A DNA stretch of 64,000 bases from Rhodothermales bacterium. GTDB taxonomy: Bacteria > Bacteroidota > Rhodothermia > Rhodothermales > JANQRZ01. The position numbers and the translations under genes are program-made. Shown one piece after another: positions 30,904-57,977 of the stretch. Under the pieces are notes generated by a model. The model was not told the DNA's origin, made no database searches, and saw only the letters and a program-made list of their open reading frames with translations. The stretch lies in assembly GCA_038232935.1 (NCBI GenBank), contig JBBSMX010000004.1, positions 2,512-66,511 of the forward strand, written 5' to 3'. The first letter of the stretch is position 1. Each line of letters opens with the position of its first letter.

Positions 30904-32712
30904 GTGGAGGCGCATTCCGTCTCGTGCCGCCCCATCATTCGTCCCTCCAGGGCCACTTTTTTGACCCCCCAACATCCTCCCTCTTCTCAGCCGACGGAGG
31001 CGCGGCCCACCATTCGGGTTCGCGTCGAAGGGAGTAGCGTACCCGGATTGGAACGGACATTTACGGAGCCGTTCACGATTGGCCGCGGGCTACAGGCAAC
31101 GCTGCACGTGGACTCCGGCCGCGTCAGCCGCATTCACGCTGAAGTCGTCTTCGAGGAGGGCTGGGTGCTCCGCGACGCGGGCAGCACAAACGGGGTGTAT
31201 TGTGACGGCGAGCGCATCGAATCGGTGCCGCTCGTGGGGGAGGTGGTGGTCCGGCTCGGGCGCGATGGCCCCGCCGTGCATTTCCAGGTAGCGGAAGCGG
31301 AGGGCAACTACACCCCGAGCGCCGATACGATTCCCAGCGATGCCCTGACGGGGAGCGAGCTCTCGCCGCCGGTGGATTTGCCGGGGAAAACGTCAGCGGC
31401 GAATTCCCGTGGCGATGACACCTCCGCGCGCGAGAAGCCATTCCCCTCGGAGGGCGGGACGATGGGGATACGGGGTGAGCCCCCATCACCGTCGGGCGCC
31501 GAAGGCAAGGGGAAGACGTCTGAGCGGTCGGTGAGCCAGGTCATCCGGCGCTACTTCGGCGACGATGCGGGGGAGCCTGCGGGCGAGCGGACGATGATGA
31601 TCCGCCGGGCGTATCAGGAGGTCCACACGAAACAGAAGCGGAAGTACAGCGGCATCATCGGAGGCGTAGCAGCGCTGCTAATCGCGGCGCTCGGCTTCGC
31701 CATCTGGCAACAGATGCGGGTGGAGAAGCTGACCAATACGGCCGAAGCGCTCTTTTACGAGATGAGAGAGCAGGATCTCGCAACGGCTGAGCTCCGCATG
31801 CTGGCTGAAGAGGGTGGCAATGCCGCGCTCGCCGCACAACTGGACGAACTGGAAGCCCGTCGTCGCCGTCAGGCCGAACTGTACCAGGGGTACGTTGAAG
31901 AACTGGGCATCTATCGCTCGCTCAACCCGCAGGAGAAGGAGATATACCGGGTGGCCCGCATCTTCAACGAGAGCGAGTTCACGATGCCGGCGGGTTTCGT
32001 CCGGGAGGTGAAGGGGGTGATCAGCGAATGGCAGCGCTCCGGCCGGCTCAAAAACGCCCTCCAACTGGCCGAGCGAAACGGCTACACCCCCGCCATCGTC
32101 CGGACGATGCAGAAGTATGGGCTCCCGCCCGAGTTCTTCTACCTCGCCCTGCAGGAGAGCAACTTCGACACGTGCATCAGTGGACCGGAGACACGCTGGG
32201 GGATCGCCAAAGGGATGTGGCAATTCATCCCGCCGACGGCCCAAGCCTACGGCCTCTCCACCGGCCCCCGCGTCGACCTCCGCGTGTGCGACCCGATGGA
32301 CGAGCGCCACGACTTCGCCCTCGCCACCGACGCCGCTGCCCGCTACCTCCTCTACATCTACACCCATCTGGCGCAGGCTTCCGGCCTGCTGGTCATGGCC
32401 TCGTACAACTGGGGCGAGCACCGCGTGTCCTCCAAGCTCGACGAGCTTCCCGAGACCCCCCTCGATCTCGTCCGGCAGGATTTCGAAGACGTGCCGCAGA
32501 ACCCGCAACAGCGTAGCTACTGGCGGTTCCTCAACGAGTACCGAGATCGGATGCCCGACGAGACGAAGAACTACGTCCTGCATATCTTCTCCGCCGCCGT
32601 CATCGGGCAAAACCCTCGGCTGTTCGGGTTCGACTTCGACAATCCGCTGGAGCCGTACCTCCAGGAACCGGCGTCTGACCCCTCCGCCGTGGCCCTTTCC
32701 ACCTCCCCTTGA
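30904..32712 (+). CDS. FHA domain - TM helix - soluble lytic transglycosylase (SLT) fusion protein (TagH/Fha-like)
   Basis: FHA block FTIGRGLQATLHVDSGRVSRIHAEVVFEEGWVLRDAGSTNGVYCDGERI. TM helix YSGIIGGVAALLIAALGFAIWQQ. SLT block FYLALQESNFD..GIAKGMWQFIPPTAQAYGL. Start uncertain: GTG 30904, or TTG 30961. Confidence 0.8.
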   Translation: MEAHSVSCRPIIRPSRATFLTPQHPPSSQPTEARPTIRVRVEGSSVPGLERTFTEPFTIGRGLQATLHVDSGRVSRIHAEVVFEEGWVLRDAGSTNGVYCDGERIESVPLVGEVVVRLGRDGPAVHFQVAEAEGNYTPSADTIPSDALTGSELSPPVDLPGKTSAANSRGDDTSAREKPFPSEGGTMGIRGEPPSPSGAEGKGKTSERSVSQVIRRYFGDDAGEPAGERTMMIRRAYQEVHTKQKRKYSGIIGGVAALLIAALGFAIWQQMRVEKLTNTAEALFYEMREQDLATAELRMLAEEGGNAALAAQLDELEARRRRQAELYQGYVEELGIYRSLNPQEKEIYRVARIFNESEFTMPAGFVREVKGVISEWQRSGRLKNALQLAERNGYTPAIVRTMQKYGLPPEFFYLALQESNFDTCISGPETRWGIAKGMWQFIPPTAQAYGLSTGPRVDLRVCDPMDERHDFALATDAAARYLLYIYTHLAQASGLLVMASYNWGEHRVSSKLDELPETPLDLVRQDFEDVPQNPQQRSYWRFLNEYRDRMPDETKNYVLHIFSAAVIGQNPRLFGFDFDNPLEPYLQEPASDPSAVALSTSP

Positions 32713-32723
32713 TCTGCTCGCTC

Positions 32724-33485
32724 ATGCTGTGGAAGCGCTCTGCCCGCCCGCTCACGATTCGCTTCGGCGCCAAGTCCGATGTCGGCCAAGTCCGCTCGGA
32801 GAATCAGGACGACTACGGGCGCTTCCCGGAGGTCCAGTCCACCCGCAATGGGGACCAGCTATTCGTCGTAGCCGACGGGATGGGCGGGCACGAGGACGGC
32901 GGCCGGGCTAGCCGGGTCGCCGTCGAAGCCGTGGGGGGCACGTACTTCACGCATCCGGAGGTACCCGTGGAGGACCGGCTGCGCCGGGCGGTCAGCGAGG
33001 CGAACGCGCGGGTCTATCAGTTCGCGCAGGCCGGTACCATCCCGAAGAAGATGGGCACCACCTGCACCGCCCTCGCCCTGGTGGGGGAAGACGCCTACCT
33101 CGCGCACGTCGGTGACAGCAGGGCCTATCGGATCAATCGGGACGGGATCTCGCAGCTCTCGCGGGATCACACGCTCGTGGAGGCGCTGATGCGCGAGGGG
33201 GTGCTGACCGAGGACGAGGCCGCGCGCCATCCGCAGCGGCACGCGCTCGTCCGAGCGATCGGGATCGAACCGGAGGTGCAGGTGGACGTGCGGCGGCTCA
33301 AGACCCCGCAGTCCGGCGATGCGTTTCTGCTGTGCTCCGACGGCCTCGCCCGCGTGACCAACGTGGAGATCCGCGACATCGTTCGTTCTGAAACACCGCA
33401 GCAGGCGGCCGAAACCCTCGTCCAACTGGCGAACGACCGCGGCGGGCACGATAATGTGACGGTTCTAGTAGTAAAGGTTGAATAG
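32724..33485 (+). CDS. PP2C-family Ser/Thr phosphatase (PppA-like)
   Basis: FGAKSDVGQVRSENQDDYG, FVVADGMGGHEDG, LCSDGL, ANDRGGHDNVTVLVVKV. The ORF is open from a TTG at 32709 that overlaps the upstream stop. Confidence 0.9.
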   Translation: MLWKRSARPLTIRFGAKSDVGQVRSENQDDYGRFPEVQSTRNGDQLFVVADGMGGHEDGGRASRVAVEAVGGTYFTHPEVPVEDRLRRAVSEANARVYQFAQAGTIPKKMGTTCTALALVGEDAYLAHVGDSRAYRINRDGISQLSRDHTLVEALMREGVLTEDEAARHPQRHALVRAIGIEPEVQVDVRRLKTPQSGDAFLLCSDGLARVTNVEIRDIVRSETPQQAAETLVQLANDRGGHDNVTVLVVKVE

Positions 33486-33550: not shown

Positions 33551-35539
33551 ATGCCTGACACCTACATCGGCCAAGAGATCGACGGCTTCCGCATCCTGGA
33601 GGAACTCGGGCGCGGCGGCATGGGCGTGGTGTACAAGGCGGAGGACGTGGCCCTCGCGAGGCCGGTCGCGCTCAAGATGATCGCCCGCGAACTCTCCCGC
33701 GACGAGTCGTTCGTGCGGCGCTTCCGGTCCGAGGCACGCGCCCTCGCCCGCATCAACAGCTCGTATATCACGAGCATCTACGCGCTACGCCGCACCGAGG
33801 ACGGCATCTTCATCGTGATGGAGTTCATCGGGGGCGGCACGCTCGGCGACCTGATGGAACGAGGGCCGGTGAAGTGGGCGGCGATCCGGCCGGCGGTCCT
33901 CGAAATGATCTCGGCACTCGAGCACGCCCACGGCGTCGGCGTCATCCATCGCGACATCAAGCCGGGCAACATCCTTCTCACCGAGGCCGGCCACGTCAAG
34001 GTGACTGACTTCGGCCTCGCCAAGCTCCACACGGCCGACCAGGGGGTGACCGTCACACAAGGGATCGCCGGCACGCTCTACTACATGTCGCCGGAGCAGG
34101 TCAAGGGCGAGCGCAACCTCGACGGCCGCAGCGACCTCTACGCCCTCGGCATCACGATCTACGAAGCGCTCAGCGGCCGGCTGCCCTTTGAGCGAGGGGG
34201 CAGCGAGTTCTCTACGATGCGGAAGATCGTTGAGGACGAGTACCCGCCGCTCGGGCAGTTCGTGCCTGATCTCCCGCCCGGCGTTGAGGCGGCCGTCATG
34301 AAGGCGCTCGCCAAGAATCCGGACGACCGCTACGCGAACGCCGCCGCGATGTGTGCCGCCTTCGATGCGATCCCCGGCGCCGCGGCCCACGCTCCGGTCG
34401 TGGCGAACGGCGCTCCGCGGCGCGAGGCCGAGACGGTGATCGCGGGCGAGGCGTACCAGCAAGCTCCAGTGAAACCGGTGCGGGAGAAGCGTGCGCTGCC
34501 GAAGCAAGGGCTGGTGATCGGCGGCGGCGTGCTCGCGGCGGTGGTGCTCGCCGTCCTCGCGTTCCTCCTCTGGCCCGGTGCTACGACGTTGAGCGTAGCC
34601 ACCAATCCGCCTGGAGCCGTCGTCACCCTCGACGGCCAACAGCTCGGTCGGACGCCGCTCGAGTCCGTCGCGGTAAAGGGCGACGGCGGAAGGCTGCGCG
34701 TCGAACGGACGGGCTACGCCCTCGTCGACACGCTGATCTCCTTCGCCGAGGGCGGGCCGCTGAACCTCCGGTTTCCGCTCGTCGCACTCGCTTCGCCATC
34801 GGGCGAGGGCTCGGTCGCGCTGCTGAACGTTACGTCTAATCCCTCGGGCGCTACCGTTCTCATCAACGGCGAGCGTGTGGGGCAGACGCCGTACACCCAC
34901 CGCGATAGCACCGCCCGCCCGCTCGCCGTACGCATCGAGCGCCGGGGCTATCAGCCGTGGAGCCAGACGGGCGTCGCACTCGATCCTGGCACGCCGACAG
35001 AGATCCGGGCCGACCTCGAACGAGCGGATGCGCCGACGACCCCGGCCGACACACGGCCCGTCGACACGCGGCCGACTGACACGGGGCCGCCGGACACCGG
35101 ACCGGCCCAGCAGGGCACTCTCACCGTCAGCGCGAATCCCGGCGGGACCGTGACCGTTGCGGGCCAGAGCCGGACGGATAGTGGGACGTTCAGCGTGCCC
35201 GCCGGCTCTACACGCATTCGTTGCCAGAACCCACTATACGGCACCTTCGAAGGGACAGTCAACGTGCGCGGCGGGCAGACGGCGACGGCGACATGCTATT
35301 TCACAGCCACCGTCAACGTCAACGTCACCACCGACGAGGGACCCACGTGGGGGTCCGTCTGGGTCGACGGACGCAACGCGGGGGAGACGCCGGCCAGCCT
35401 GACGCTCGGCCCCGGCACCCACACCGTCGAGGTCCGACGAGCAGGCTATCAGACACTCGATCCGTCTCGAACCATCACCATCGCGGCCGGACTGCAGCCG
35501 AAGACCGAGCGCCTGGTATTTCAGATGAGGAAGGAGTGA
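33551..35539 (+). CDS. Ser/Thr protein kinase (PpkA-like) with TM helix and PEGA-type extracytoplasmic repeats
   Basis: Hanks kinase motifs GRGGMGVVYKA, HRDIKPGNILL, DFGLAK. TM helix GLVIGGGVLAAVVLAVLAFLLW. Three PEGA-like modules (VATNPPGAVVTLDGQQLGRTP, VTSNPSGATVLINGERVGQTP, VWVDGRNAGETP). Confidence 0.9.
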   Translation: MPDTYIGQEIDGFRILEELGRGGMGVVYKAEDVALARPVALKMIARELSRDESFVRRFRSEARALARINSSYITSIYALRRTEDGIFIVMEFIGGGTLGDLMERGPVKWAAIRPAVLEMISALEHAHGVGVIHRDIKPGNILLTEAGHVKVTDFGLAKLHTADQGVTVTQGIAGTLYYMSPEQVKGERNLDGRSDLYALGITIYEALSGRLPFERGGSEFSTMRKIVEDEYPPLGQFVPDLPPGVEAAVMKALAKNPDDRYANAAAMCAAFDAIPGAAAHAPVVANGAPRREAETVIAGEAYQQAPVKPVREKRALPKQGLVIGGGVLAAVVLAVLAFLLWPGATTLSVATNPPGAVVTLDGQQLGRTPLESVAVKGDGGRLRVERTGYALVDTLISFAEGGPLNLRFPLVALASPSGEGSVALLNVTSNPSGATVLINGERVGQTPYTHRDSTARPLAVRIERRGYQPWSQTGVALDPGTPTEIRADLERADAPTTPADTRPVDTRPTDTGPPDTGPAQQGTLTVSANPGGTVTVAGQSRTDSGTFSVPAGSTRIRCQNPLYGTFEGTVNVRGGQTATATCYFTATVNVNVTTDEGPTWGSVWVDGRNAGETPASLTLGPGTHTVEVRRAGYQTLDPSRTITIAAGLQPKTERLVFQMRKE

Positions 35540-35621
35540 CGCGAGTCCTCCTTCGTACTTACATTGGGGGGCTTCCCTCCCTATATCTACTAAGAACAGA
35601 AAGCTAAAGAGGTGACCAGTG

Positions 35622-36665
35622 ATGCCCCCGATTCTATCCCGTTTGTTGTGTGCGGCGCTCTGCGTCGTTGCCGTTTCGTTCGCCCCCGTGCAGGCGCAGG
35701 ACGTGGCGCTACAGAAGGCTATCGAGGCCTATAGCGTCGCGGAGTACGACCAGGCCATCACCGGCTTCGCCGCCCTCGTCGAAGACGCCTCGACGGACAA
35801 GGCCGTGAAGAAGGAGGCGCTCCAGTATCTCGGCCGCGCCTACGTCGCCAAGCGGGCCTACGACGACGTGCGCTCCACCATCGACCGGCTCCTCGACCTC
35901 GAGCCGCCGCTCGTCGAGCTCGACCCGGAGGACGAGCCGCCTGCGCTCATGAAGCTCTACTACGAAGTCCGCCGCGACTACGCGGGCTACGAGGTCCAAC
36001 GGCCCGAGCCCGGTATGAAGACGCTGGCCGTGATGGACTTCACGAACACATCCGTGGACGAGAAGGAGCGCTTCGACTCGATGCAGCAGGGGTTCGCCTC
36101 GATGATGATCAACTACCTCGAAGGCGCGACTGGGCTGAAGGTGGTCGAGCGCGAGCGCATCCAGTGGCTCCTCGACGAGCTGGAGCTTCAGCGCGACGGG
36201 GGCCTCGTAGACCAAGCCTCGGCCGTGCGTACGGGCAAGCTCCTCGGCGCGAACGCCGTCCTCTTCGGTGCCTTCACCGTGCATGGGAACCAGATGTGGA
36301 TCTCGGCCCGCCTCGTGAAAGTGGAGACCGGCGAGATCCTGCTGGCCGAGCAGATCTTCGGGAAGAAAGACGAATTCTTCGAGCTCATCGAGAAGCTCTC
36401 CGATCAGGTCGCCGATGCGATCGGTGTGGAGCTAGCCAAAAACAACAACGACAACAACGGTGGGAGTGCGAGTGCCGGGGGAGATGGCGAATCCCACTCG
36501 CTCGACGCCGTGCTGTCGTATTCGCAGGGGCTCGGGCTCATCGAGCAGGAGAAGTATCAGGAGGCCTACGACAAGTTCATCGAGGCGCTCGAGTACGACC
36601 CGAACTACACCCGCGCTCGGCGCAAGGCCGACAGCTTGAGGCCGCAGCTGGCGGCGGCTGGCTAA
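35622..36665 (+). CDS. Secreted TPR + CsgG-like domain protein
   Basis: Signal peptide MPPILSRLLCAALCVVAVSFAPVQAQ. TPR-like N- and C-terminal regions. Central block LAVMDFTNTSVDE..LKVVERERIQWLLDELELQRDG..GKLLGANAVLFGAFT resembles CsgG-family lipoprotein domains. Confidence 0.6.
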   Translation: MPPILSRLLCAALCVVAVSFAPVQAQDVALQKAIEAYSVAEYDQAITGFAALVEDASTDKAVKKEALQYLGRAYVAKRAYDDVRSTIDRLLDLEPPLVELDPEDEPPALMKLYYEVRRDYAGYEVQRPEPGMKTLAVMDFTNTSVDEKERFDSMQQGFASMMINYLEGATGLKVVERERIQWLLDELELQRDGGLVDQASAVRTGKLLGANAVLFGAFTVHGNQMWISARLVKVETGEILLAEQIFGKKDEFFELIEKLSDQVADAIGVELAKNNNDNNGGSASAGGDGESHSLDAVLSYSQGLGLIEQEKYQEAYDKFIEALEYDPNYTRARRKADSLRPQLAAAG

Positions 36666-36732
36666 CCTGCGCAAACCGCTGTCGTACTCTCTGGCTTGGG
36701 ACCATGTCCCCCTCTCCGTCACCCCTCCCTTT

Positions 36733-38034
36733 ATGTTTCGCGGACTCGCTCTTCTCTCCCTGCTGACGCTCGGGCTGCTGGCCGCCTGTGCGCCAACGAA
36801 CGAGATCGGCACCGTAGCTCCGGAGAAGCTGGGCCGCGCCATCGACCGCGCCCGTGCCGACCTCGTCCGAAGGCCGAACGAGGCGAGCGCGCTCCGCGAC
36901 CTCGGTGCCCTCCTCTCGCAGGACGAGCGGTTCGACGAGGCGGCCCCGTACCTCCGGCAGGCCTACGTCGAAGATCCATCCGGTGCGAAGACGCTCTACT
37001 ACCTCGGCCTGCTCAACGAGAAGGAAGGCAGCCCCGACGAGGCCTTAAAGTTCTACGGACGGTTCGCGGATGTCTCGGTGCGCTCCCCCTTCCGGCCTCT
37101 GTTGAAGGGGCGCTACGAGTCGCTCGTTCGGGAGCGGATCCAGCAGGAAATGGGGGCGCTCGCGGCGCGGGAGGACACGCTCGCGACGGCGGAGGACATG
37201 CCTCCGACGGTCGCTGTGTTTCCATTCGCGTACCGCGGGAGCGACCCCCGCTTCGCTCCGCTCGGACGAGGGCTGGGGGAGATGGTGCAGGCCGACCTCG
37301 CCGGTATCGGCGGGCTTCAGGTGGTGGAACGGCTCCGTCTCCAGTCGCTGCTCGACGAGCTCTCGCTGTCGCAATCCGAGGCGTTCGATCCGTCCACCAC
37401 GCCGCGCGTGGGGCGTCTGCTCCGCGCAGGCCGCGCTGTAGGCGGCTCTTTCGACGTGGACAACCGCGACCTCCGCATCGACGCCGCGCTGTGGAACTGG
37501 GAGGACCAGCCGTCGCCGAACTTACAGACCCGCTCGGATAACCTCGATAAGCTCTTCCAACTGAAGCGAGAGGTCGTGTTAGGGCTTGTAGAGCAGTTGG
37601 GCGTCCCCCTCACCGCCGAGGAGCGAGCCATGCTCGACGAGGTGCCGACGCGCAATCTGCAGGCGTTCATCATCTACTCGCGAGGGCTAGAGCAGGAGGA
37701 CGCCGGCAACTTCCCTGATGCCGCCGGCCTTTACCGCGAAGCGGCGAAGCTGGACCCGACGTTCGAGCGCGCCGCCGCCGGGGCCGAGCGGGCAGCGGAG
37801 GTCGACCATGCCGGGGGATCGCTCGAGCACGGCCTCGCCGCCGCTCTTGCGCTCGAAGACCTCGGGGGGATTAACCTCGTCGCCAACCGGCTCAGCAAGC
37901 TCAACGATAGCATTGGGGCGACTTTTCTTCCAGGGGCGGGGGGCGACCGTGACAGCCCTGCGGGGGAAGCCGCAGCCGCGGACGGCATCTTCGACTCCCT
38001 TCCTGATCCCCCCGACCCGCCGGGTGGCAACTGA
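36733..38034 (+). CDS. Lipoprotein with TPR + CsgG-like domain (paralogue of the preceding gene)
   Basis: Lipobox LLAAC. TPR-like region. VAVFPFAYRGSDPRF..LQVVERLRLQSLLDELSLSQS..GRLLRAGRAVGGSF parallels the preceding protein. Confidence 0.6.
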   Translation: MFRGLALLSLLTLGLLAACAPTNEIGTVAPEKLGRAIDRARADLVRRPNEASALRDLGALLSQDERFDEAAPYLRQAYVEDPSGAKTLYYLGLLNEKEGSPDEALKFYGRFADVSVRSPFRPLLKGRYESLVRERIQQEMGALAAREDTLATAEDMPPTVAVFPFAYRGSDPRFAPLGRGLGEMVQADLAGIGGLQVVERLRLQSLLDELSLSQSEAFDPSTTPRVGRLLRAGRAVGGSFDVDNRDLRIDAALWNWEDQPSPNLQTRSDNLDKLFQLKREVVLGLVEQLGVPLTAEERAMLDEVPTRNLQAFIIYSRGLEQEDAGNFPDAAGLYREAAKLDPTFERAAAGAERAAEVDHAGGSLEHGLAAALALEDLGGINLVANRLSKLNDSIGATFLPGAGGDRDSPAGEAAAADGIFDSLPDPPDPPGGN

Positions 38035-38063
38035 TCCCAACGTTTTAATATGCGTGCATTGAT

Positions 38064-39746
38064 ATGAACAGGCTTTGGACTGGACGGCTCACAGCGTTTC
38101 TCCTCGTGCTCTCACTGGGCTTCGGGCCGGGCGTGCGCGCACAGGACTTCGAGGTGGAGACGGGCGGGGTGCCGGTGCCCGGTCAGTCGCTGAGCGCTAC
38201 GGTGACCGTGTTCGCGAACAACCCCAGCAACGGCACGCTCTTTTACCGCCCCACCGGGACGAGGGAGTACGCTTCCTTGACCCCCCAGCAGAACAGCAAC
38301 GTGTTCACCGTGGAGATCCCGGCCGGAGCAGTGACGGAACGTGGGCTCGATGTCTACGGCACGTACTTCGACGATGGAGAGCTGCGGACCTACCCCATCG
38401 AGAACCCGGAGGAGTTCCCGTACCGCCTCCCTGTGTATCTCGGCTCGTATCCCGTTCCCGTCGAGTTAGCGCCGCGCCAGTACCGGATGGTTTCGGTCGC
38501 GGCCGACCTCGGCGCGGGGACGGCGGCGGGCGAGCTCACGGACGACTTCGGCATGCCGAACATCGCGCGGTGGCGAGCGGCCCGGTGGAACCCCGCACGC
38601 AGCCAGTACGAGGAACTGCCGGACATCGCAAGCTCGCTTACGGAGGGCACGGCTTTCTGGCTGATCACAGCAGCCGGGGGCGGGTTCGACATCGACGCGG
38701 CGACCTCCACCAACCCCGACTCGCTACCGACCATCACGCTCGCGCCGGGGTTCAATCAAGTCGCTAACCCGTACGCGTTCCCCATCGCGTGGGACGACAT
38801 TTTGAATGCGTCGGAGCTCGGTGGGTCGGACATCGGGGTGCCGTTGGCATTCGACGGGGTGTCCCCGTACGTCGAGGAGACCGTACTGCAGCCGTGGACG
38901 GGCTACTTCGTGCAGAACAACACGGGGCAGGCGTTGACGCTGACGGTGCCGGACTCCGAAGCGCTGGGCGATGGAGGCCGTCCCGATCTGCCCGAGGCGA
39001 CCTACACCGTCCGTGTGAGTGCTGAGGCTGATGCCTACCGCGATACGCTGAACGTGATCGGGTTCGCGACAGGGTCCGAGATAGGGCGTGACGGGATGGA
39101 CCTCGCGGAGCCGCCGCCCATCGGCGCCTACGTCCGTGTGAGCGTGATCGAGAACGGCGAGCGCCTGATGCGGAGCCTGAGACCGGAACGCGCCGACGGC
39201 GAGCTGTGGGACGTGGAGGTGACGGCGTCGGCCGATCTGCTCGAAGGCGGGCCGCGCCGTGCCGCCGTGTCGCTGAGCGAGGAGGGCGTGCGCCCGAGCG
39301 GCTTTCAGCTTTACGTGATCGACCGAGACCGCGCGACGGCGGTACCCGTGACGGACGGGGTGTTCGAGCTCGTGCTGAGCCGGGAAGCCCCGGTGCGACG
39401 GCTCCGGCTGATCGCGGGGACGGAAGACTTCGCCCGCACCGGCAGCGAGGGCGCGCCGCTCGAGTTCACCGGGTTCGCGCTCGACGCGAGCTACCCCAAT
39501 CCGTTCGAGGACCAGGCTACGATCGGCTACCGGCTCGAAGGGCTGGGCTGGGCCACGCTGGAGGTCTTCGACCTGCTCGGCCGCCGCGTACGCGTGCTCG
39601 CCGACGGCGAGCACAGCGCCGGGCCGCACACCGCCGAGTGGGATGGCCGCGACGGGACCGGGCGGGCTGTCGCCAACGGCATCTACCTAGTCCGGCTCCG
39701 CGCCGGTGATGCCTCGGCGACGCGCCGGGCCACCGTGCTTCGCTAA
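38064..39746 (+). CDS. Secreted protein of unknown function with T9SS type-A C-terminal sorting domain
   Basis: Signal peptide ..LVLSLGFGPGVRAQ. C-terminus YPNPFEDQATIGYRLEGLGWATLEVFDLLGRRVRVLADGEHSAGPHTAEWDGRDGTGRAVANGIYLVRLRAGDASATRRATVLR. Confidence 0.75.
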   Translation: MNRLWTGRLTAFLLVLSLGFGPGVRAQDFEVETGGVPVPGQSLSATVTVFANNPSNGTLFYRPTGTREYASLTPQQNSNVFTVEIPAGAVTERGLDVYGTYFDDGELRTYPIENPEEFPYRLPVYLGSYPVPVELAPRQYRMVSVAADLGAGTAAGELTDDFGMPNIARWRAARWNPARSQYEELPDIASSLTEGTAFWLITAAGGGFDIDAATSTNPDSLPTITLAPGFNQVANPYAFPIAWDDILNASELGGSDIGVPLAFDGVSPYVEETVLQPWTGYFVQNNTGQALTLTVPDSEALGDGGRPDLPEATYTVRVSAEADAYRDTLNVIGFATGSEIGRDGMDLAEPPPIGAYVRVSVIENGERLMRSLRPERADGELWDVEVTASADLLEGGPRRAAVSLSEEGVRPSGFQLYVIDRDRATAVPVTDGVFELVLSREAPVRRLRLIAGTEDFARTGSEGAPLEFTGFALDASYPNPFEDQATIGYRLEGLGWATLEVFDLLGRRVRVLADGEHSAGPHTAEWDGRDGTGRAVANGIYLVRLRAGDASATRRATVLR

Positions 39747-39754
39747 CCCCCCCG

Positions 39755-40843
39755 ATGCTCGTGAAACGCTTCCTCTTTTCGATCCTTCTCGCTACGCTGG
39801 CCGCGCCGATTGCGCTCGGGCAACCGTCGGCGCTCTACGCTAATGCAGAGCGGCAGCCCTTCCGGGTCACGATGGAGGGGCTCTTCCAGCGCTTCTCCGA
39901 CGACGGGGAAGACATCAGCGAGGTGAGCCTGCCCCTGGGCCTGTTCCTCCCCATCGGCGATAACGTCGCGCTCAGCATGCAGACGAACTACGCGGCGGTG
40001 AGTGGGAGTGATATCGAAACCGTCTCTAGGTTGGGCGATGCGCAGTTCGTGGCGAGCTACTTCCAACCTGCCGGGGTGGGCAGCCTCGTGTTCAGCCTCG
40101 GCGTGAACGCGACTACGGGCAACAGCGCGCTCTCCTTCCAGGAATTCCGGACGTCCACGCTGGCGGGTCAGACCGCGTACGACCTCCGCGTGCCCACGTT
40201 CGGGCAAGGCATCCGCGTGGCTCCAGCCGTTACCTACGCCTTCCCCGTTGGGGAACGCCTCGCGCTCGGCCTCGGGGTCTCGTACCAGTACCGTGGTCCC
40301 TACGAACCCCTCGACGACCTCCCAGACCAGTACGACCCCGGCGAAGAAGTCTTGCTCACGGCTGGGGCCGACCTGGGCGTCACGCCGACCTCCTCGTTCT
40401 CCCTCGACCTGTCGCTCGGTCTCAACGGAACCGACACGTGGGGCCCGATGACGTACGAGCCCGGAAACACCGTGACGGCGACGGCCCAATACCTCCTCCT
40501 CCTCGGCTTCCACCAAGTCCGTGCGGTAGCGCGCTACCGGGACCGAGGCGAGGGCAATCTGCCAAACGAAGCCGCTACGGCAGAGACGGCGGTGCCGACC
40601 CAGATCCAGTTCTTCACCGATGTCCGCTACCAGGTCACCCCGACCTTCGAGGTGGGCGCGCTCGCGCGCGTTCGTAATTACGGAGAGAGCGCCCTCCTCG
40701 GAGAGTCGCAGACGCTTTTCGATATCGGGGTAAACCCGGCTGTGGCGGTGACCGAGCAGGTGAGCCTGACCGGGCGCTTCGTCTACACGCTCGGTGGGTT
40801 TACAGGGATTACGGCCGGGGGAGGATTGAGCCTTTCATTCTAG
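39755..40843 (+). CDS. Outer-membrane beta-barrel protein (unknown family)
   Basis: Signal peptide MLVKRFLFSILLATLAAPIALGQ. Alternating amphipathic strands, many aromatic/Gly turns, and a C-terminal ..GGGLSLSF ending in Phe. Starts 8 nt after the previous gene. Confidence 0.6.
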   Translation: MLVKRFLFSILLATLAAPIALGQPSALYANAERQPFRVTMEGLFQRFSDDGEDISEVSLPLGLFLPIGDNVALSMQTNYAAVSGSDIETVSRLGDAQFVASYFQPAGVGSLVFSLGVNATTGNSALSFQEFRTSTLAGQTAYDLRVPTFGQGIRVAPAVTYAFPVGERLALGLGVSYQYRGPYEPLDDLPDQYDPGEEVLLTAGADLGVTPTSSFSLDLSLGLNGTDTWGPMTYEPGNTVTATAQYLLLLGFHQVRAVARYRDRGEGNLPNEAATAETAVPTQIQFFTDVRYQVTPTFEVGALARVRNYGESALLGESQTLFDIGVNPAVAVTEQVSLTGRFVYTLGGFTGITAGGGLSLSF

Positions 40844-40870
40844 CCGATGAGGCCTGGAGTGAGGTCGGAC

Positions 40871-40909
40871 GCGGCGGGGCAGCGCTACCCGCTGCCCCGC
40901 CGCGTTTTT
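40871..40909 (+). terminator. Rho-independent terminator closing the long + strand array
   Basis: Perfect 13-bp stem gcggcggggcagc / gctgccccgccgc, 7-nt loop gctaccc, followed by gttttt. Confidence 0.75.
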
Positions 40910-41576: not shown

Positions 41577-43226
41577 ATGCCCAACCCCGTCATCCTCGTC
41601 GTGGACGACGACCCCGATGTCCTCCGCGCTATCGCCCGCGATCTTCGGCGCCGGTACGGTCAGGACTACCGGGTGCTCCGTGCTTCGTCGGGCCCTGAAG
41701 CAATCGCTGCCCTTGACGAGTTGAAGGAGCGGGGGGAATCCGTCGCCCTGCTGCTCTCCGACCAGCGAATGCCTCGGATGGATGGGGTTGCGTTCCTGAG
41801 CGAGGCCATGGTGCAGTATCCACGCAGCAAACGCGCCCTGCTCACGGCCTATGCCGACACCGACGCTGCGATCTCGGCCATCAACCGCTCGCAGGTCGAT
41901 TACTACCTCCTCAAGCCATGGGACCCGCCCGAAGAGCGTTTGTATCCGGTTCTCGACGATCTCCTCAGCGACTGGCGAGCGGGGTATCGGCCGGGGTACG
42001 GCGGCGTTCGTATCGTCGGGAGTCGGTGGTCGCCGGAGTCACACCGGGTCAAGGATTTCCTCGCGCGCAACGCCGTCCCGTATCAGTTCGTGGACATCGA
42101 GAGCGAGGAAGGCATTGACGCGCTCGGATCGACCGATGGGGAGCAGGTGCTCCCGCTCGTGATCCTGTCTGATGGGGAACGGATGGCGAATCCAGCCTTG
42201 GGTGAACTGGCCGACAAACTCGGTCTCCGCACGCGGGCTGAAGACGAGTTCTACGATCTCGCGATTGTCGGCGGTGGGCCGGCTGGACTGGCGGCGGCCG
42301 TATACGGTGCCTCGGAAGGACTCCGGACGGTGCTGATCGAGCGCGAGGCACCGGGAGGGCAGGCCGGTACGTCCAGCCGCATCGAGAACTACCTCGGGTT
42401 CCCCGCCGGGCTCTCCGGTGCCGACCTCGCCCGGCGGGCTGTGACGCAGGCCGAGCGCTTCGGCGTCGAGATCCTCGCGCCGCAGGAGGTGGAGCGCCTC
42501 ACCGTCGACGGTCCGTACAAGCGGCTCCGCCTTTCCAACGGCAGCGAGGTGTCGTGCCACGTGCTCATGCTGGCGATGGGCGTCGCGTGGCGCAAGCTCC
42601 CGGCGCCCGGCGCCGAGCGGCTTGCCGGGCGAGGGATCTACTACGGCGCCGCGATGACCGAAGCCATCGGCTGCAAAGACGAAGTGGTCTATATCGTTGG
42701 CGCGGGTAACTCAGCCGGACAGGCGGCGATGTACTTCGCCGAGTACGCGGCGCGGGTCGTCATGCTCATCCGCGGCGGTGACCTCGGCTCGAAGATGAGC
42801 CATTACCTCGTCGAGCGGATCGAGGCGCACGAGCGGATCGATGTGGAGCTAAACACGGAGATCGTCGGGTGCGAGGGTGACGACCACCTCGAACGCCTCG
42901 TGCTGGAGTGCAGTGTGACCGGGGACCGGGAGGCGGTCGAGACGCGGTACCTCTTCGTGTTCATCGGAGCTGCGCCGAATACGGAGTGGCTCGATGGCGT
43001 CGTGGTCCGCGATACGCAAGGGTTCGTCCCTACCGGCCCTGACCTCGCCGAGCACGAGCTCGATGGCTGGCCGCTGGAGCGCGCGCCGTATTTGCTGGAG
43101 ACGAACGTGCCCGGCATCTTCGTCGCGGGCGACGTGCGCCACGAGTCCGTTAAACGGGTGGCGAGCGCGGTCGGCGAAGGGTCGGTCGCCGTCCACTTCA
43201 TGCACCGCCACCTCGCCACGCTCTGA
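41577..43226 (+). CDS. Fused response-regulator receiver / thioredoxin-disulfide-reductase-like flavoprotein
   Basis: REC domain (ILVVDDDPDVL..LLLSDQRMPRMDG). FAD/NAD(P) oxidoreductase (YDLAIVGGGPAGLAAAVYGASEGL, VYIVGAGNSAGQAA, GIFVAGDVR). Confidence 0.88.
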   Translation: MPNPVILVVDDDPDVLRAIARDLRRRYGQDYRVLRASSGPEAIAALDELKERGESVALLLSDQRMPRMDGVAFLSEAMVQYPRSKRALLTAYADTDAAISAINRSQVDYYLLKPWDPPEERLYPVLDDLLSDWRAGYRPGYGGVRIVGSRWSPESHRVKDFLARNAVPYQFVDIESEEGIDALGSTDGEQVLPLVILSDGERMANPALGELADKLGLRTRAEDEFYDLAIVGGGPAGLAAAVYGASEGLRTVLIEREAPGGQAGTSSRIENYLGFPAGLSGADLARRAVTQAERFGVEILAPQEVERLTVDGPYKRLRLSNGSEVSCHVLMLAMGVAWRKLPAPGAERLAGRGIYYGAAMTEAIGCKDEVVYIVGAGNSAGQAAMYFAEYAARVVMLIRGGDLGSKMSHYLVERIEAHERIDVELNTEIVGCEGDDHLERLVLECSVTGDREAVETRYLFVFIGAAPNTEWLDGVVVRDTQGFVPTGPDLAEHELDGWPLERAPYLLETNVPGIFVAGDVRHESVKRVASAVGEGSVAVHFMHRHLATL

Positions 43227-52188: not shown

Positions 52189-52259
52189 ATACGCTAGAGG
52201 CGGAGGAGGCTTGTGCGAGCGGGCCCTCTCCGCTTCTGCGTTTAGTCCGGAGGTCGGCA

Positions 52260-53564
52260 ATGAAACGCGCTGTGTTGTTTGCAACGATGATTGGCTTCTG
52301 CGCCACGGCTTCTCAAGTTCCGGCTCAGCCTCTGGGTAGGCTCAATTGGGAACCCGTTGGCACGCTTGCTTATGCTGAAGGGCTATTTACGGCCGGCGAT
52401 ACAGCCGTCTATGCTGCTTCTGGTACCAATGGATTCTTCGTCATCCGGCAGGAGGAGCAGGATTGGACGCCGATTGTAGCGCCTCATGCCCAAGATGTAT
52501 GGGTCTCATCTGAAGGGTACCTTTTCGCCTTCAATACGGTCGATACAGATCGCTCGACGGATGGAGGGCAGACGTGGCGCGAAGTTCTCAGCGGTAGTGA
52601 GACCGTCCCCTTCCTCACGCCTTCGAGAACCCTCTTGGCGGGCGAGGGCAATTGCTGCGGCCTCGCCCGCTCCACCGACGCCGGGGCGCGCTGGACGACG
52701 ATCGAGATGGATGAGTTCGTCGGGTTCGGCCTCATCCCCTATGGCTTCGCCGCCCTTCCACCTTCGGAGACGCTCCCCCGGGACCGCATCGTCGGGGCAG
52801 GGCGCGGCGGTATCGTTTACAGCGACGACGACGGGCTCACGTGGGAGCCGACGGCGCTCGTTCAGAACTTCAACATCGTCGCGCGCTCCATCGTCCGCGC
52901 TCCCAACGGGTTCTTCTACGCCGCCGTCAACGGCCTCTTCGCCAGCGCGTTCGGCGGCGTCTTCGAGAGCGCGGACGGGGCAACGTGGGAGCTGGCCGGG
53001 ACGATCCCCGGCGAGTGGAGCTACGGCTATCAACTTCTCTCTACCCCGGACGGTGCGCTCTACGCCATCGCCGTCGGGCAGCCCGAGGGGGGTGAGGTGT
53101 ACCGGTCGCTCGACGCGGGGCGGACGTGGAAAGAGACGGGGCCGGTGTGGACGGAGCGGAATGTGCGGCTCAACGAGCTGGTGGTGGGGCCGGGCGGGCA
53201 CCTCTGGGCCGGGACCACCGGGGTCGGAGCGGGGGCCACGGGCGGCGTGTTTCGGACGGTGGGGCCGGTGTTCACGGTGGCGGCGGAGGCCCCTGCTGCG
53301 GCGTCCTCGGGCCTCCGGCTCTATGCCTACCCCAACCCGTCGAGCGGAGGCGCGAACGTGGCGCTGACCCTCCCGGCCCCGTCGGTCGTCCGCCTCGCCG
53401 TCTACGACGCGCTCGGGCGCGAGGTGGCCGTCCTCCACGACGGCCTGCTTGGTGCAGGCGACCACCGGTTCTCCGTAGGCTCCGGCCTCGCACCAGGCAT
53501 CTACGTCCTCCGTGCCACGGCGGGTGGGGCCTCGGTCTCGGCTCACGTCACCCTCATCCGCTGA
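52260..53564 (+). CDS. Asp-box (BNR) beta-propeller protein with T9SS CTD
   Basis: Signal peptide MKRAVLFATMIGFCATASQVPAQ. Asp-boxes STDGGQTW, STDAGARW, SDDDGLTW, SADGATW, SLDAGRTW. CTD YPNPSSGGANVALTL..IYVLRATA..TLIR. Confidence 0.85.
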   Translation: MKRAVLFATMIGFCATASQVPAQPLGRLNWEPVGTLAYAEGLFTAGDTAVYAASGTNGFFVIRQEEQDWTPIVAPHAQDVWVSSEGYLFAFNTVDTDRSTDGGQTWREVLSGSETVPFLTPSRTLLAGEGNCCGLARSTDAGARWTTIEMDEFVGFGLIPYGFAALPPSETLPRDRIVGAGRGGIVYSDDDGLTWEPTALVQNFNIVARSIVRAPNGFFYAAVNGLFASAFGGVFESADGATWELAGTIPGEWSYGYQLLSTPDGALYAIAVGQPEGGEVYRSLDAGRTWKETGPVWTERNVRLNELVVGPGGHLWAGTTGVGAGATGGVFRTVGPVFTVAAEAPAAASSGLRLYAYPNPSSGGANVALTLPAPSVVRLAVYDALGREVAVLHDGLLGAGDHRFSVGSGLAPGIYVLRATAGGASVSAHVTLIR

Positions 53565-53625
53565 GTTGGGCACCGTGCGTGTGAGGCTCGCTCAACGAGC
53601 TCTCCACTTACCTGATCGAAACGCC

Positions 53626-54537: not shown

Positions 54538-54560
54538 GGGCGAGCGCGCTGCGCCCCTAC
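54534..54560. terminator. Palindromic hairpin at the convergence point of + and - strand genes
   Basis: Perfect 9-bp stem gtaggggcg / cgcccctac with a 9-nt loop. It overlaps the TAG stop of the gene ending at 54537. Confidence 0.45.
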
Positions 54561-54584
54561 GTCGTTTACGGCGGCGTGTCCCCC

Positions 54585-54745: not shown

Positions 54746-54754
54746 CCCCGGCTG

Positions 54755-56362: not shown

Positions 56363-56364
56363 CG

Positions 56365-57975: not shown

Positions 57976-57977
57976 CG

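What the first reader, a model, noticed from the sequence alone, without database searches (positions are those of the whole stretch)
35622..40909. Four envelope proteins co-oriented behind the T6SS kinase, ending at the only strong terminator: a candidate surface-sensing module that includes a T9SS cargo protein
Seen in sequence:
- After the PpkA-like kinase come two paralogous TPR + CsgG-like proteins (one with a lipobox), a T9SS-CTD protein of unknown function, and an OM beta-barrel.
- The gaps between them are 79, 67, 29 and 8 nt.
- No convincing terminator occurs until the perfect 13-bp-stem/T-run terminator at 40871-40909.
- The kinase ectodomain is built of PEGA repeats.
Established knowledge: in the best-studied threonine-phosphorylation pathway, the kinase has a VWA-type periplasmic region and is triggered through the envelope proteins TagQ/TagR/TagS/TagT.
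Inference: these four proteins may be a non-homologous replacement for TagQRST. If so, they would couple a T9SS-displayed surface protein to T6SS firing.
Basis: inference. Interest (0 to 1): 0.55.

Follow-up and report, generated by a model that had tools for sequence, protein, structure and literature searches.

The report
Envelope sensor cassette behind T6SS kinase
Four envelope proteins encoded after a secretion-system kinase belong to a widely conserved, undescribed gene cassette that most likely relays a cell-surface signal to that kinase, and in this bacterium probably controls when its type VI "crossbow" is built.

Summary
Four co-oriented envelope genes follow the PEGA-ectodomain Ser/Thr kinase at the 3' end of a T6SS-i cluster in a Rhodothermales MAG. 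They are P1 (periplasmic TPR/CsgG-LpoB-like), P2 (lipoprotein paralogue), P3 (T9SS type-A CTD protein) and P4 (predicted OM beta-barrel). The window's strongest hairpin plus T-run follows them.

Across about 100 related loci the order FHA protein, PP2C, kinase, P1, P2, then P3 and P4 is strongly conserved:
- kinase directly upstream of P1 in 48/49 loci
- P2 directly downstream in 50/53
- P3 and P4 downstream in 26/30

A P1 tree splits by context. Two clades carry an FHA-TM-lytic-transglycosylase protein plus T6SS genes. In L029 the cassette lies between T6SS genes. A third clade pairs the cassette with double-FHA and FHA-oxidoreductase proteins and no T6SS genes in the fetched flanks.

P2-P3-P4 also occurs without any kinase, and P3 homologues carry swappable N-terminal binding heads. 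One Rhodothermales chromosome keeps the cassette with no T6SS genes nearby.

So the "surface-sensing input to the kinase" reading is well supported by synteny. The module is not homologous to TagQRST. It is a portable sensor cassette, not a T6SS-specific one. No step has experimental support.

The parts
30904..32712 (+). FHA-TM-SLT protein (602 aa): cytoplasmic FHA domain, one transmembrane helix, periplasmic lytic-transglycosylase domain. Proposed phosphothreonine reader and output of the kinase in the T6SS-linked version of the cassette.
   Evidence: Pfam FHA at residues 58-119 and SLT at 401-513. Single hydrophobic segment at 249-267. Conserved upstream of PP2C/kinase in all P1 clade A and B loci that have enough flank.
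32709..33485 (+). PP2C phosphatase (258 aa), PppA-like reset enzyme.
   Evidence: Pfam PP2C_2, 69.5 bits. Found upstream of P1 in 30/34 loci with enough flank.
33551..35539 (+). Hanks-type Ser/Thr kinase (662 aa) with one TM helix and a periplasmic ectodomain of PEGA repeats.
   Evidence: Pkinase 163 bits and PEGA 131 bits in 3 stretches. TM at 321-339. Directly upstream of P1 in 48/49 loci.
35619..36665 (+). P1: secreted (type-I signal peptide) periplasmic protein with TPR, a CsgG/LpoB/FlgO-like alpha/beta core, then TPR. Proposed adaptor between the OM complex and the kinase ectodomain.
   Evidence: Pfam CsgG 46.8, LpoB 26.2, FlgO and TPR. Alignment A2 of 11 orthologues. Always beside the kinase. 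No Pro-rich tail in 0/95 homologues.
36733..38034 (+). P2: OM lipoprotein paralogue of P1 (lipobox LLAAC) with TPR, alpha/beta core, TPR, and a conserved C-terminal Pro-rich tail (…LPDPPDPPGGN).
   Evidence: Sequence. TPR hits and CsgG 18.8 bits. Paralogy to P1 at E 9e-15. Pro-rich tail in 56/58 homologues. Co-duplicated with P4 in L023/L024.
38064..39746 (+). P3: signal peptide, about 450 aa of beta-sandwich domains, and a T9SS type-A C-terminal sorting domain. Proposed surface-displayed receptor base.
   Evidence: TIGR04183 31.2 bits (cut-off 23). FlgD_ig 36.8 bits. AF2 model pLDDT 88, all-beta multidomain. Low-TM Foldseek matches to multi-domain beta-sandwich proteins (complement C3/CD109/alpha-2-macroglobulin, fibronectin type III arrays, Ig-like receptors) and to PorZ/PorU. 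Larger homologues add variable N-terminal heads.
39755..40843 (+). P4: outer-membrane beta-barrel of an undescribed family, last gene of the block.
   Evidence: AF2 model pLDDT 80, about 16-17 strands plus helix 128-142. Foldseek top hit is the PelB barrel 9h80_M (TMq 0.52), then OmpG, porins and AlgE. 42/46 homologues end in F/L/Y/I. 1021 50%-identity clusters at E<=1e-3.
40870..40909 (+). Intrinsic-terminator-like hairpin: 15-bp perfect G+C-rich stem, 5-nt loop, T5.
   Evidence: Sequence. Fold energy -36.1 kcal/mol, the strongest hairpin-plus-T-run on the + strand of the window. Not conserved in orthologous loci.

Best explanation
**What it is.** The four genes are the envelope half of a conserved signalling cassette. 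Its order is FHA-domain protein, PP2C phosphatase, PEGA-ectodomain Hanks kinase, P1, P2, then P3 and P4.

**Proposed mechanism.**
1. P3 is exported by the T9SS and displayed on the cell surface. It is a stalk of beta-sandwich domains. In relatives the same stalk carries LRR, beta-propeller, FG-GAP or Ig heads.
2. P4 is an OM barrel. P2 is an OM lipoprotein with TPRs, a CsgG/LpoB-like alpha/beta core and a Pro-rich tail. With P3 they form an outer-membrane complex. This trio also exists on its own in other genomes.
3. P1 is a soluble periplasmic paralogue of P2 that is almost always encoded directly after the kinase. It bridges the OM complex and the periplasmic PEGA domains of the kinase. This parallels TagQ (OM lipoprotein) and TagR (periplasmic activator of PpkA).
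4. A change at the surface, such as contact, ligand binding or envelope damage, alters the P2-P1-PEGA interaction and switches the kinase.
5. FHA-domain proteins read the phosphothreonine marks. In this locus that is the FHA-TM-lytic-transglycosylase protein, probably together with a TagH-like Fha. These license T6SS assembly. PP2C and TagF oppose it.

**Shown.** Domain content, protein topology, predicted folds, and the very strong conserved gene order and context.

**Inferred.** Every protein contact, surface display of P3, the direction of signal flow, and the T6SS output.
For: - **Window-type locus is conserved.** The order VipAB-like, FHA-SLT, PP2C, kinase, P1-P4 recurs in five other Rhodothermales/Bacteroidota contigs at 53-82% identity.
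- **Adjacency over about 100 loci.** Kinase directly upstream of P1 in 48/49. P2 directly downstream in 50/53. P3 and P4 downstream in 26/30. PP2C upstream in 30/34. An FHA protein upstream in 25/26.
- **P1 tree tracks context.** Clades A and B always have FHA-SLT, and T6SS genes wherever the flank reaches. L026 has DUF2169 and VipAB-like. L029 has VipAB-like on one side and TagH-like, TssJ-like, TssK, TssL and TssM on the other. L058 has a VgrG C-terminus and PAAR.
- **The block ends after P4.** Downstream genes differ between relatives, Usp in some and a 71-aa protein plus comM in others, while everything up to P4 is shared.
- **Topology fits a trans-envelope relay.** The kinase has a TM helix with periplasmic PEGA repeats. 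P1 has a type-I signal peptide, P2 a lipobox, P4 a barrel fold, P3 a CTD.
- **P1 and P2 are paralogues**. Their CsgG-like alpha/beta core belongs to a group of OM lipoproteins (LptE-, PelC-, CsgG- and PqiC-like) that form rings or dock on barrels (PMC13631591).
- **P2 and P4 co-duplicate one-to-one** in L023 and L024.
- **P3 homologues keep the base and CTD but swap N-terminal binding heads**, as expected for a surface receptor or adhesin.
- **Precedents for lineage-specific envelope inputs to PpkA:** TagQRST, RtkS and TssW (PMC13584744; PMC12607579).
Against: - There are no expression, interaction or phenotype data.
- The P2-P3-P4 trio occurs without kinase or P1 (L006, L012, L013, L016, L021, L024). 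Its primary job may therefore be something other than signalling.
- P1 clade C uses the same cassette with no T6SS genes in the flanks. T6SS control is thus at most one of several outputs.
- L002/L010 keeps FHA-SLT, the kinase and P1-P4 intact, but has no PP2C, VipAB-like or T6SS genes within 10 kb. No TssC of >=65% identity shows up on that 3.5-Mb contig, while sister genomes' TssC rank 3-5 at 88-91% identity.
- The 79-172-nt kinase-P1 gap could hold a separate promoter.
- The terminator is not conserved.
- CTD proteins are common in this genome, with six more in the window.
- The FHA-SLT protein is not a TagH equivalog (16.7 bits vs cut-off 120).
Confidence: 0.5

Rival explanations
1. The trio P2-P3-P4 is an autonomous unit for displaying or anchoring a surface adhesin. 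A T9SS cargo is held on a dedicated barrel with a lipoprotein partner, in the way SprB-type cargo is paired with PorP/SprF-like barrels. The kinase and P1 are regulators or clients of that unit, not receivers of a signal from it. Linkage to T6SS would reflect co-regulation of adhesion and attack, not a sensing pathway.
For: - The trio is found without kinase or P1 in several lineages, and as second copies in genomes that also have the kinase-linked copy (L012 with L011, L013 with L007).
- P3 homologues carry adhesin-like heads: LRR, FG-GAP, propellers, Ig.
- The P3-P4 gap is only 8-14 nt in orthologues.
- Six other CTD proteins lie in the window.
Against: - P4 does not match PorP/SprF. The window protein has no hit, and only 2/45 family members hit weakly at E about 1e-3.
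- P3 has a type-A CTD. From my own knowledge, PorP/SprF partners are typical of type-B CTDs.
- A kinase with a large periplasmic ectodomain, placed beside a periplasmic paralogue of the lipoprotein in 48/49 loci, is more easily read as a signal receiver.
Confidence: 0.2
2. P2 (with P1) and P4 form an outer-membrane export channel of the PelC/PelB or AlgK/AlgE type: TPR scaffold, alpha/beta-core lipoprotein and a 16-18-strand barrel. It would export a polymer or other substrate, with the kinase regulating export.
For: - The top Foldseek hit of P4 is the PelB barrel of PelBC (9h80_M, TMq 0.52), and AlgE is also listed.
- P4 has a helix between barrel strands, as PelB has its Plug-I helix (PMC12141448).
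- P1 and P2 combine TPRs with the alpha/beta core shared by PelC, CsgG and LptE.
- P2 and P4 co-duplicate.
Against: - TM scores near 0.5 are what any similar-sized barrel gives. OmpG and the general porins score about the same.
- No glycosyltransferase, synthase or polymer-modifying gene is conserved next to the cassette in any context examined.
- The conserved neighbours are a kinase, a phosphatase and FHA proteins.
Confidence: 0.1
3. P1 and P2 are LpoB-like regulators of cell-wall enzymes. They would control the periplasmic SLT domain of the FHA-TM-SLT protein, or a PBP, so that peptidoglycan is opened locally for T6SS insertion. P3 and P4 would be passengers.
For: - P1 matches Pfam LpoB (26.2 bits, cut-off 22.3).
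- A profile of P1 orthologues gives weak hits to LpoB structures (E 0.03-0.3).
- FHA-TM-SLT is the conserved neighbour in P1 clades A and B.
- T6SS assembly is known to need local peptidoglycan remodelling (MltE, TagX; PMC13584744).
Against: - Clade C cassettes keep P1-P4 without any SLT protein.
- P1 is far below the LpoB equivalog cut-off (21 vs 110 bits).
- P3 and P4 are as conserved in position as P1 and P2 (26/30), so they are not passengers.
Confidence: 0.1
4. The four genes are chance neighbours of the T6SS cluster with no functional link to the kinase or to T6SS.
For: - CTD proteins are frequent in this genome.
- One related chromosome has the genes with no T6SS genes nearby.
Against: - The gene order is conserved in dozens of loci at 40-57% P1 identity and 33-72% GC.
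- The cassette is embedded between T6SS genes in L029.
- The shared block ends exactly after P4.
Confidence: 0.04

Closest known systems
TagQRST-PpkA-Fha1-PppA threonine phosphorylation pathway of the Pseudomonas aeruginosa H1-T6SS
   Same: - A membrane Hanks kinase with a periplasmic domain, a PP2C phosphatase, an FHA reader and TagF are all encoded in the T6SS cluster.
- An OM lipoprotein plus a periplasmic protein sit upstream of the kinase in the pathway (TagQ/TagR compared with P2/P1) (PMC13584744; PMC12607579).
   Different: - No sequence relationship. There is no FGE-sulfatase-like TagR and no TagS/T ABC module.
- The kinase ectodomain is built of PEGA repeats.
- This cassette adds an OM barrel and a T9SS-exported protein.
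- The FHA partner carries a lytic transglycosylase domain.
- The cassette also occurs with non-T6SS outputs.
TssW-PpkA-Fha axis (Acidovorax citrulli), RtkS (Serratia), and TslA/TagM1 with OmpA (Acinetobacter, Burkholderia)
   Same: These are lineage-specific periplasmic or OM-anchored proteins encoded in T6SS clusters. They act on the kinase or the membrane complex to decide where and when the T6SS assembles (PMC12607579; PMC13584744).
   Different: - They are single proteins, not a four-protein set.
- None is reported with TPR/CsgG-like domains, a dedicated barrel or a T9SS cargo. The 2026 review does not contain the terms PEGA, TPR, CsgG or T9SS.
PelC-PelB and AlgK-AlgE outer-membrane exopolysaccharide export complexes
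   Same: - The same building blocks: a TPR scaffold, an alpha/beta-core OM lipoprotein and a 16-18-strand barrel with an internal helix.
- PelB is the best structural match of P4.
   Different: - The domains are distributed differently: TPR is fused to the alpha/beta core, and the barrel is a separate protein.
- No polysaccharide synthesis genes are nearby.
- The conserved partners are a kinase, a phosphatase and FHA proteins.
RcsF-OMP-IgaA envelope stress sensing in Enterobacteria (from my own knowledge, not tested here)
   Same: An OM lipoprotein is paired with a beta-barrel and reports surface or OM perturbation across the periplasm to an inner-membrane signalling protein.
   Different: - The proteins are unrelated.
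- The output there is a phosphorelay, not a Hanks kinase.
- No T9SS-displayed partner is involved.
T9SS cargo with a dedicated barrel partner (SprB-SprF, PorP/SprF family; from my own knowledge)
   Same: A CTD protein gene is followed within a few bases by an OM barrel gene.
   Different: - P4 is not a PorP/SprF member.
- P3 has a type-A CTD.

Membership tests
TagQRST (P. aeruginosa TPP input module) | TagR: periplasmic FGE-sulfatase/COG1262-type protein | tested here: not met
   No such domain appears in P1-P4 with Pfam at E<=0.01 or NCBIfam at E<=0.1.
TagQRST (P. aeruginosa TPP input module) | TagS/TagT: ABC-transporter-like permease plus ATPase | tested here: not met
   No ABC or FtsX-type domain occurs in any of the four proteins or in the genes between DUF2169 and Usp.
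TagQRST (P. aeruginosa TPP input module) | TagQ: OM lipoprotein encoded with the kinase | tested here: inconclusive
   P2 has a lipobox, so the role is matched. No TagQ sequence or model was available for comparison, so this is analogy only.
T6SS threonine phosphorylation pathway (PpkA/PppA/Fha/TagF) | Membrane Hanks kinase with a periplasmic domain, plus PP2C, encoded in a T6SS cluster | tested here: met
   Pkinase, TM at 321-339 and PEGA ectodomain; PP2C; TagF_N at 5806-6771; the T6SS-i core genes TssK, TssL, TssM, TssA, TssB, TssC, Hcp, TssE, TssF, TssG, ClpV and VgrG lie in the same strand run; TssJ was not seen inside the window.
T6SS threonine phosphorylation pathway (PpkA/PppA/Fha/TagF) | TagH/Fha-type FHA protein (TIGR03354) | tested here: not met
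   FHA-SLT scores 16.7 bits against a cut-off of 120. TagH-like FHA proteins are seen in relatives: the 409-aa L031 protein has a weak T6SS_FHA_C hit, and its homologues occur in L065 and L029. Inside this window none was found, but the cluster start lies upstream of the window.
T9SS type-A CTD cargo | C-terminal sorting domain at the extreme C-terminus that passes the model cut-off | tested here: met
   TIGR04183 scores 31.2 bits (cut-off 23) at residues 477-555 of 560. Pfam PF18962 is below its cut-off (22.1 vs 27). The protein ends …RRATVLR, like its homologues.
T9SS type-A CTD cargo | Host encodes a T9SS | not testable with these tools
   No T9SS core gene lies in the window. Indirect support comes from six further CTD proteins in the window and the Rhodothermales origin.
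CsgG curli secretion channel (PF03783) | Full-length match including the membrane-spanning hairpin region, and a lipoprotein | tested here: not met
   P1 matches only profile positions 10-100 of 210 and has no lipobox. P2 scores 18.8 bits against a cut-off of 20.8. Only the alpha/beta core is shared.
LpoB penicillin-binding-protein activator | Equivalog-level match (TIGR02722) | tested here: not met
   21 bits against a cut-off of 110.55. The Pfam domain-level match is 26.2 bits against 22.3.
TssQ family T6SS-iii lipoprotein (NF038027) | Score above the family cut-off | tested here: not met
   The P1 N-terminal TPR region scores 23.3 bits against a cut-off of 65.
PorP/SprF T9SS membrane protein (PF11751) | Pfam match | tested here: not met
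   The window P4 has no hit. Only 2 of 45 diverse family members hit, with best E 0.00098.
PelB/BcsC/PgaA/AlgE-type polysaccharide porin | 16-18-strand barrel linked to a TPR scaffold and encoded with a polymer synthase | tested here: inconclusive
   The barrel fold is similar (TMq 0.52 to 9h80_M), but no better than to OmpG or the porins. No synthase genes occur in any context examined.

The most novel reading that the evidence does not exclude
The cassette is a previously unrecognised, modular trans-envelope receptor system of FCB-group bacteria.
- A T9SS-displayed protein with a constant base and exchangeable ligand-binding heads reports specific surface contacts.
- The signal passes through a dedicated barrel, a lipoprotein and its periplasmic paralogue to a PEGA-ectodomain Hanks kinase.
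- FHA-domain proteins set the output.

In this Rhodothermales lineage it would aim or trigger a T6SS-i, through an FHA-tethered lytic transglycosylase that opens the cell wall at the contact site. That would functionally couple the T9SS and T6SS. In other lineages the same cassette would switch redox enzymes.
Probability: 0.3. Interest if true: 0.8.

Novelty: new variant of a known kind. Interest (0 to 1): 0.6.

Why it matters
How T6SS kinases sense the outside world is understood only for a few Proteobacteria (TagQRST, RtkS, TssW).

This cassette would be a different, non-homologous solution that is widespread in uncultured Bacteroidota, Rhodothermales and Ignavibacteria. It depends on a second secretion system (T9SS) to place its presumed receptor on the surface.

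It also defines three protein families that currently have no annotation:
- the P4 barrel family, with about 1000 clusters at 50% identity
- the P3 base
- the P1/P2 TPR-alpha/beta-core proteins

The same input cassette is wired to different FHA-domain outputs in different lineages. That gives a natural system for studying how Hanks-kinase pathways are rewired.

Tried and rejected
**Dead ends**
- Exact look-up of the window P3 found nothing, so contexts were reached through homologues.
- Sequence searches of the PDB were uninformative. P1 matched only TPRs and weakly LpoB. P4 matched nothing. P3 matched only the CTD/FlgD-like part.
- Rfam and tRNA scans of the window found nothing.
- The built-in terminator scan missed the 40870-40909 hairpin, so I used my own scan.
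- Literature searches for PEGA plus T6SS kinase, for Rhodothermales plus T6SS, and for an FHA-lytic-transglycosylase fusion in T6SS found no description.

**Considered and rejected**
- P4 as a PorP/SprF member.
- P1 as TssQ or as an LpoB equivalog.
- An exopolysaccharide export system, because no synthase gene occurs in any context.
- The 71-74-aa membrane protein after P4 in L002-L005 as a fifth member. It travels with comM, also in L006, and is absent from the window.
- The terminator as a conserved operon boundary.

**Left open**
- Whether the L010 genome has a T6SS elsewhere. No TssC of >=65% identity shows up on that contig, but other contigs of the MAG and divergent systems could not be checked.

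Full report
**What is in the window**

The window is about 66% G+C. The first three quarters carry one long run of + strand genes. In order they are:
- a T6SS-i type cluster: TssK (cut at the window start), TssL, TssM, TagF, TssA, TssB, TssC, Hcp, TssE, TssF, TssG, ClpV, two VgrG, an Rhs protein and DUF2169
- a 608-aa TssB-TssC-like fusion (29031-30857)
- an FHA-TM-SLT protein (30904-32712)
- a PP2C phosphatase (32709-33485)
- a Ser/Thr kinase with a PEGA ectodomain (33551-35539)
- the four genes of the finding

The nearest database copy of P3 is 100% identical, from a 67-kb NCBI contig. Related copies are labelled Rhodothermales or Bacteroidota MAGs.

**Checking the observation**

Coordinates and gaps are as stated: 79, 67, 29 and 8 nt.

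- **P1 (35619-36665).** It has a type-I signal peptide. Pfam hits are CsgG (46.8 bits, but only profile positions 10-100 of 210), LpoB, FlgO and TPR.
- **P2 (36733-38034).** It has the lipobox LLAAC and several TPR hits. Its CsgG hit is sub-threshold. It is clearly paralogous to P1: 28% identity over 196 aa, E 9e-15.
- **P3 (38064-39746).** Its C-terminal sorting domain passes the NCBIfam T9SS type-A cut-off (31.2 vs 23 bits).
- **P4 (39755-40843).** It matches no family. AlphaFold models it (pLDDT 80) as a barrel of about 16-17 strands with one helix, and Foldseek returns only OM barrels.
- **Kinase.** It has one TM helix (321-339) and three PEGA matches.
- **Terminator.** The hairpin at 40870-40904 is a perfect 15-bp stem followed by T5. 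At -36 kcal/mol it is the strongest such site on the + strand in my scan.

There are two caveats. The built-in scan did not report the hairpin. It is also not conserved in orthologous loci.

**Close relatives**

Five contigs carrying P3 orthologues (53-69% identity) show the same order: VipAB-like, FHA-SLT, PP2C, kinase, P1, P2, P3, P4. All eight genes are clearly orthologous.

Downstream of P4 the neighbours differ. In the window, L001 and L007 the next gene is Usp. In L002-L005 it is a 71-aa membrane protein followed by comM. So the shared block ends exactly at P4.

One 3.5-Mb Rhodothermales chromosome (L002 = L010) has a short FHA protein, FHA-SLT, the kinase and P1-P4, all intact. It lacks PP2C, the VipAB-like gene and any T6SS gene within 10 kb.

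Among the 120 best TssC homologues, those of the sister genomes rank 3-5 at 88-91% identity. None comes from the 3.5-Mb contig. That chromosome therefore very likely lacks the orthologous T6SS. Other contigs of the MAG could not be checked.

**Distant relatives**

I scanned GTDB genomes with a P4 profile (18 loci) and JGI metagenomes with a P1 profile (80 loci). I mapped both sets with tblastn. They show a cassette conserved far beyond this lineage, at 40-57% P1 identity and 33-72% GC.

Adjacency counts:

| Relationship | Loci |
|---|---|
| Kinase directly upstream of P1 | 48/49 |
| P2 directly downstream of P1 | 50/53 |
| P3 and P4 downstream | 26/30 |
| PP2C upstream | 30/34 |
| An FHA protein upstream | 25/26 |

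A neighbour-joining tree of 88 P1 sequences sorts by genomic context.

- **Clade A.** This clade includes the window. Every locus with enough upstream flank (>=5 kb) has FHA-SLT, and T6SS genes appear in most loci where the flank reaches far enough. L026 adds DUF2169. L029 has VipAB-like and FHA-SLT on one side of the cassette and a TagH-like FHA protein, a TssJ-like lipoprotein, TssK, TssL and TssM on the other.
- **Clade B.** These are low-GC loci. They have FHA-SLT plus a VgrG C-terminus, PAAR, an OmpA-like protein and DcrB-like genes.
- **Clade C.** The same PP2C-kinase-P1-P2-P3-P4 set follows a double-FHA protein. In the five loci with the longest upstream flank (L023, L083, L087, L088, L089) an FHA-Pyr_redox-Fer2 protein, a conserved 285-aa membrane protein and, in most, a multihaem cytochrome and a cNMP/4Fe-4S protein also lie upstream. 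No T6SS gene lies in the flanks.

**The trio without a kinase**

P2-P3-P4 occurs without kinase or P1 in L006, L012, L013, L016, L021 and L024. In some cases it is a second copy in a genome that also has the kinase-linked copy: L013 with L007, and L012 with L011.

In L023 and L024, P2 and P4 are duplicated together as pairs.

**The proteins**

- **P3.** The model (pLDDT 88) is a chain of beta-sandwich domains plus the CTD. It has only low-TM resemblance to multi-domain beta-sandwich proteins: complement C3/CD109/alpha-2-macroglobulin, fibronectin type III arrays, Ig-like receptors, and PorZ/PorU. Larger homologues of 930-1640 aa keep this base and CTD. They add very different N-terminal heads: PQQ/BamB-like propeller, LRR plus Ig, FG-GAP, ASH/HYDIN-type Ig, or DUF11. 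This is the pattern of a surface receptor or adhesin with a constant docking part.
- **P4.** It belongs to a sizeable unannotated barrel family: 1021 clusters at 50% identity at E<=1e-3, and 218 at <=1e-30. The family has only weak, scattered matches to generic OMP models and is not PorP/SprF. The best structural match is the PelB barrel (TMq 0.52), but OmpG and the porins score similarly.
- **P2.** Homologues end in a conserved Pro-rich tail in 56 of 58 cases.
- **P1.** Homologues never carry that tail (0 of 95).
- **P4 C-terminus.** Homologues end in F/L/Y/I in 42 of 46 cases.

The alpha/beta core that P1 and P2 share with CsgG is the one that LptE-, PelC-, CsgG- and PqiC-like OM lipoproteins use to form rings or dock on barrels (PMC13631591).

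**Interpretation**

The data fit a trans-envelope relay.
1. An OM complex of P3, P4 and P2.
2. A periplasmic paralogue, P1, that is always encoded with the kinase.
3. The PEGA ectodomain of the kinase.
4. FHA-domain readers, with PP2C as the reset.

This suggests that phosphorylation may bring cell-wall opening to the site of T6SS assembly. That is inference.

The logic parallels TagQ/TagR-PpkA, TssW-PpkA and RtkS (PMC13584744; PMC12607579), but there is no homology. No FGE-sulfatase or ABC domains are present, and the weak TssQ hit (23 bits vs cut-off 65) is TPR-level only. The 2026 review of T6SS accessory factors does not contain the terms PEGA, TPR, CsgG or T9SS.

**Limits**

- The cassette is not T6SS-specific, as clade C, the kinase-less trios and L010 show.
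- All protein contacts, the surface display of P3 and the direction of signalling are inferred.
- The kinase-P1 gap of 79-172 nt could hold a promoter.
- No cultured carrier was identified.

The main rivals are an adhesin-display unit, a Pel/Alg-like exporter, and LpoB-like control of the SLT domain. Each explains part of the anatomy. Each fits less well with the near-invariant kinase-P1 adjacency, the absence of synthase genes, and the SLT-free clade C.

**Verdict**

This is a real, conserved and undescribed envelope module tied to a Hanks kinase. In this lineage it is very probably an input to T6SS control. More generally it is a portable sensor cassette.
- Novelty: a new variant of a known kind, namely an envelope input to a threonine-phosphorylation pathway.
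- Interest: 0.6.

Noticed in passing
window 29031-30857 (+): This is a 608-aa fusion of a TssB-like domain (VipA, residues 26-160) and a TssC-like N-terminal domain (VipB, residues 222-487). It comes in addition to the canonical TssB (8697-9218) and TssC (9266-10801). It lies directly upstream of the FHA-TM-SLT gene in the window-type loci and in L026, L029, L030, L047 and L082, at 34-77% identity. Its function is unknown; it may be a sheath-related regulator.
   Followed up: partly
window 30904-32712 (+): This is a bitopic protein: a cytoplasmic FHA domain, one TM helix (249-267) and a periplasmic SLT lytic-transglycosylase domain. It is conserved next to PP2C and the kinase in all T6SS-linked cassettes. 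I found no paper describing an FHA-lytic-transglycosylase fusion in T6SS. It could link phosphosignalling to local cell-wall opening.
   Followed up: partly
window 1-29013 (+): A T6SS-i type cluster (TssK, TssL, TssM, TagF, TssA, TssB, TssC, Hcp, TssE, TssF, TssG, ClpV, two VgrG, Rhs, DUF2169) sits in a Rhodothermales MAG. A 2026 review describes T6SS-i as confined to Pseudomonadota and T6SS-iii as the Bacteroidota type. TssC homologues at 69-70% identity exist in cultured Rubrivirga strains.
   Followed up: no
window 49858-61568 (both strands): Six further proteins carry T9SS C-terminal sorting domains. They include a beta-helix/TPR protein, a BNR protein, two paralogous proteins of about 535 aa, and an S8 subtilase of 1196 aa. 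CTD cargo is therefore dense in this region.
   Followed up: no
L002 / L010 (CBDCCX010000006.1, 3.5-Mb Rhodothermales chromosome): This chromosome keeps a short (234-aa) FHA protein with similarity to the TagH-like FHA proteins of L031/L065, plus FHA-SLT, the kinase and P1-P4, all intact. It lacks PP2C, the VipAB-like gene and T6SS genes nearby. No close TssC from this contig appears among the top 120 hits. It looks like a natural case of the sensor cassette surviving without its T6SS.
   Followed up: partly
L083, L087, L088, L089, L023 (P1 clade C): The same PP2C-kinase-P1-P2-P3-P4 cassette follows a conserved set of genes: a cNMP-binding/4Fe-4S protein, a 285-aa membrane protein, a multihaem cytochrome c, a double-FHA protein and an FHA-Pyr_redox-Fer2 protein. 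This suggests phospho-control of a redox module by the same envelope sensor.
   Followed up: partly
L031 and L065 (P1 clade A): These loci have a TagH-like FHA protein, an FHA-SLT-like protein, PP2C, the kinase and two tandem P1 copies. No P2, P3 or P4 follows; SbcCD-like genes (judged from their sequences, not scanned) come next. This is a version of the cassette without the outer-membrane components.
   Followed up: no
window 41577-43226 (+): A response-regulator receiver domain is fused to a pyridine-nucleotide-disulphide oxidoreductase. It lies two genes after P4, behind Usp. It is shared only with L001. Any relation to the FHA-Pyr_redox proteins of clade C is unknown and is probably coincidental.
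   Followed up: no
window 40870-40909: The built-in terminator scan did not list this perfect 15-bp hairpin plus T5, although the site appears to meet the tool's stated criteria.
   Followed up: yes
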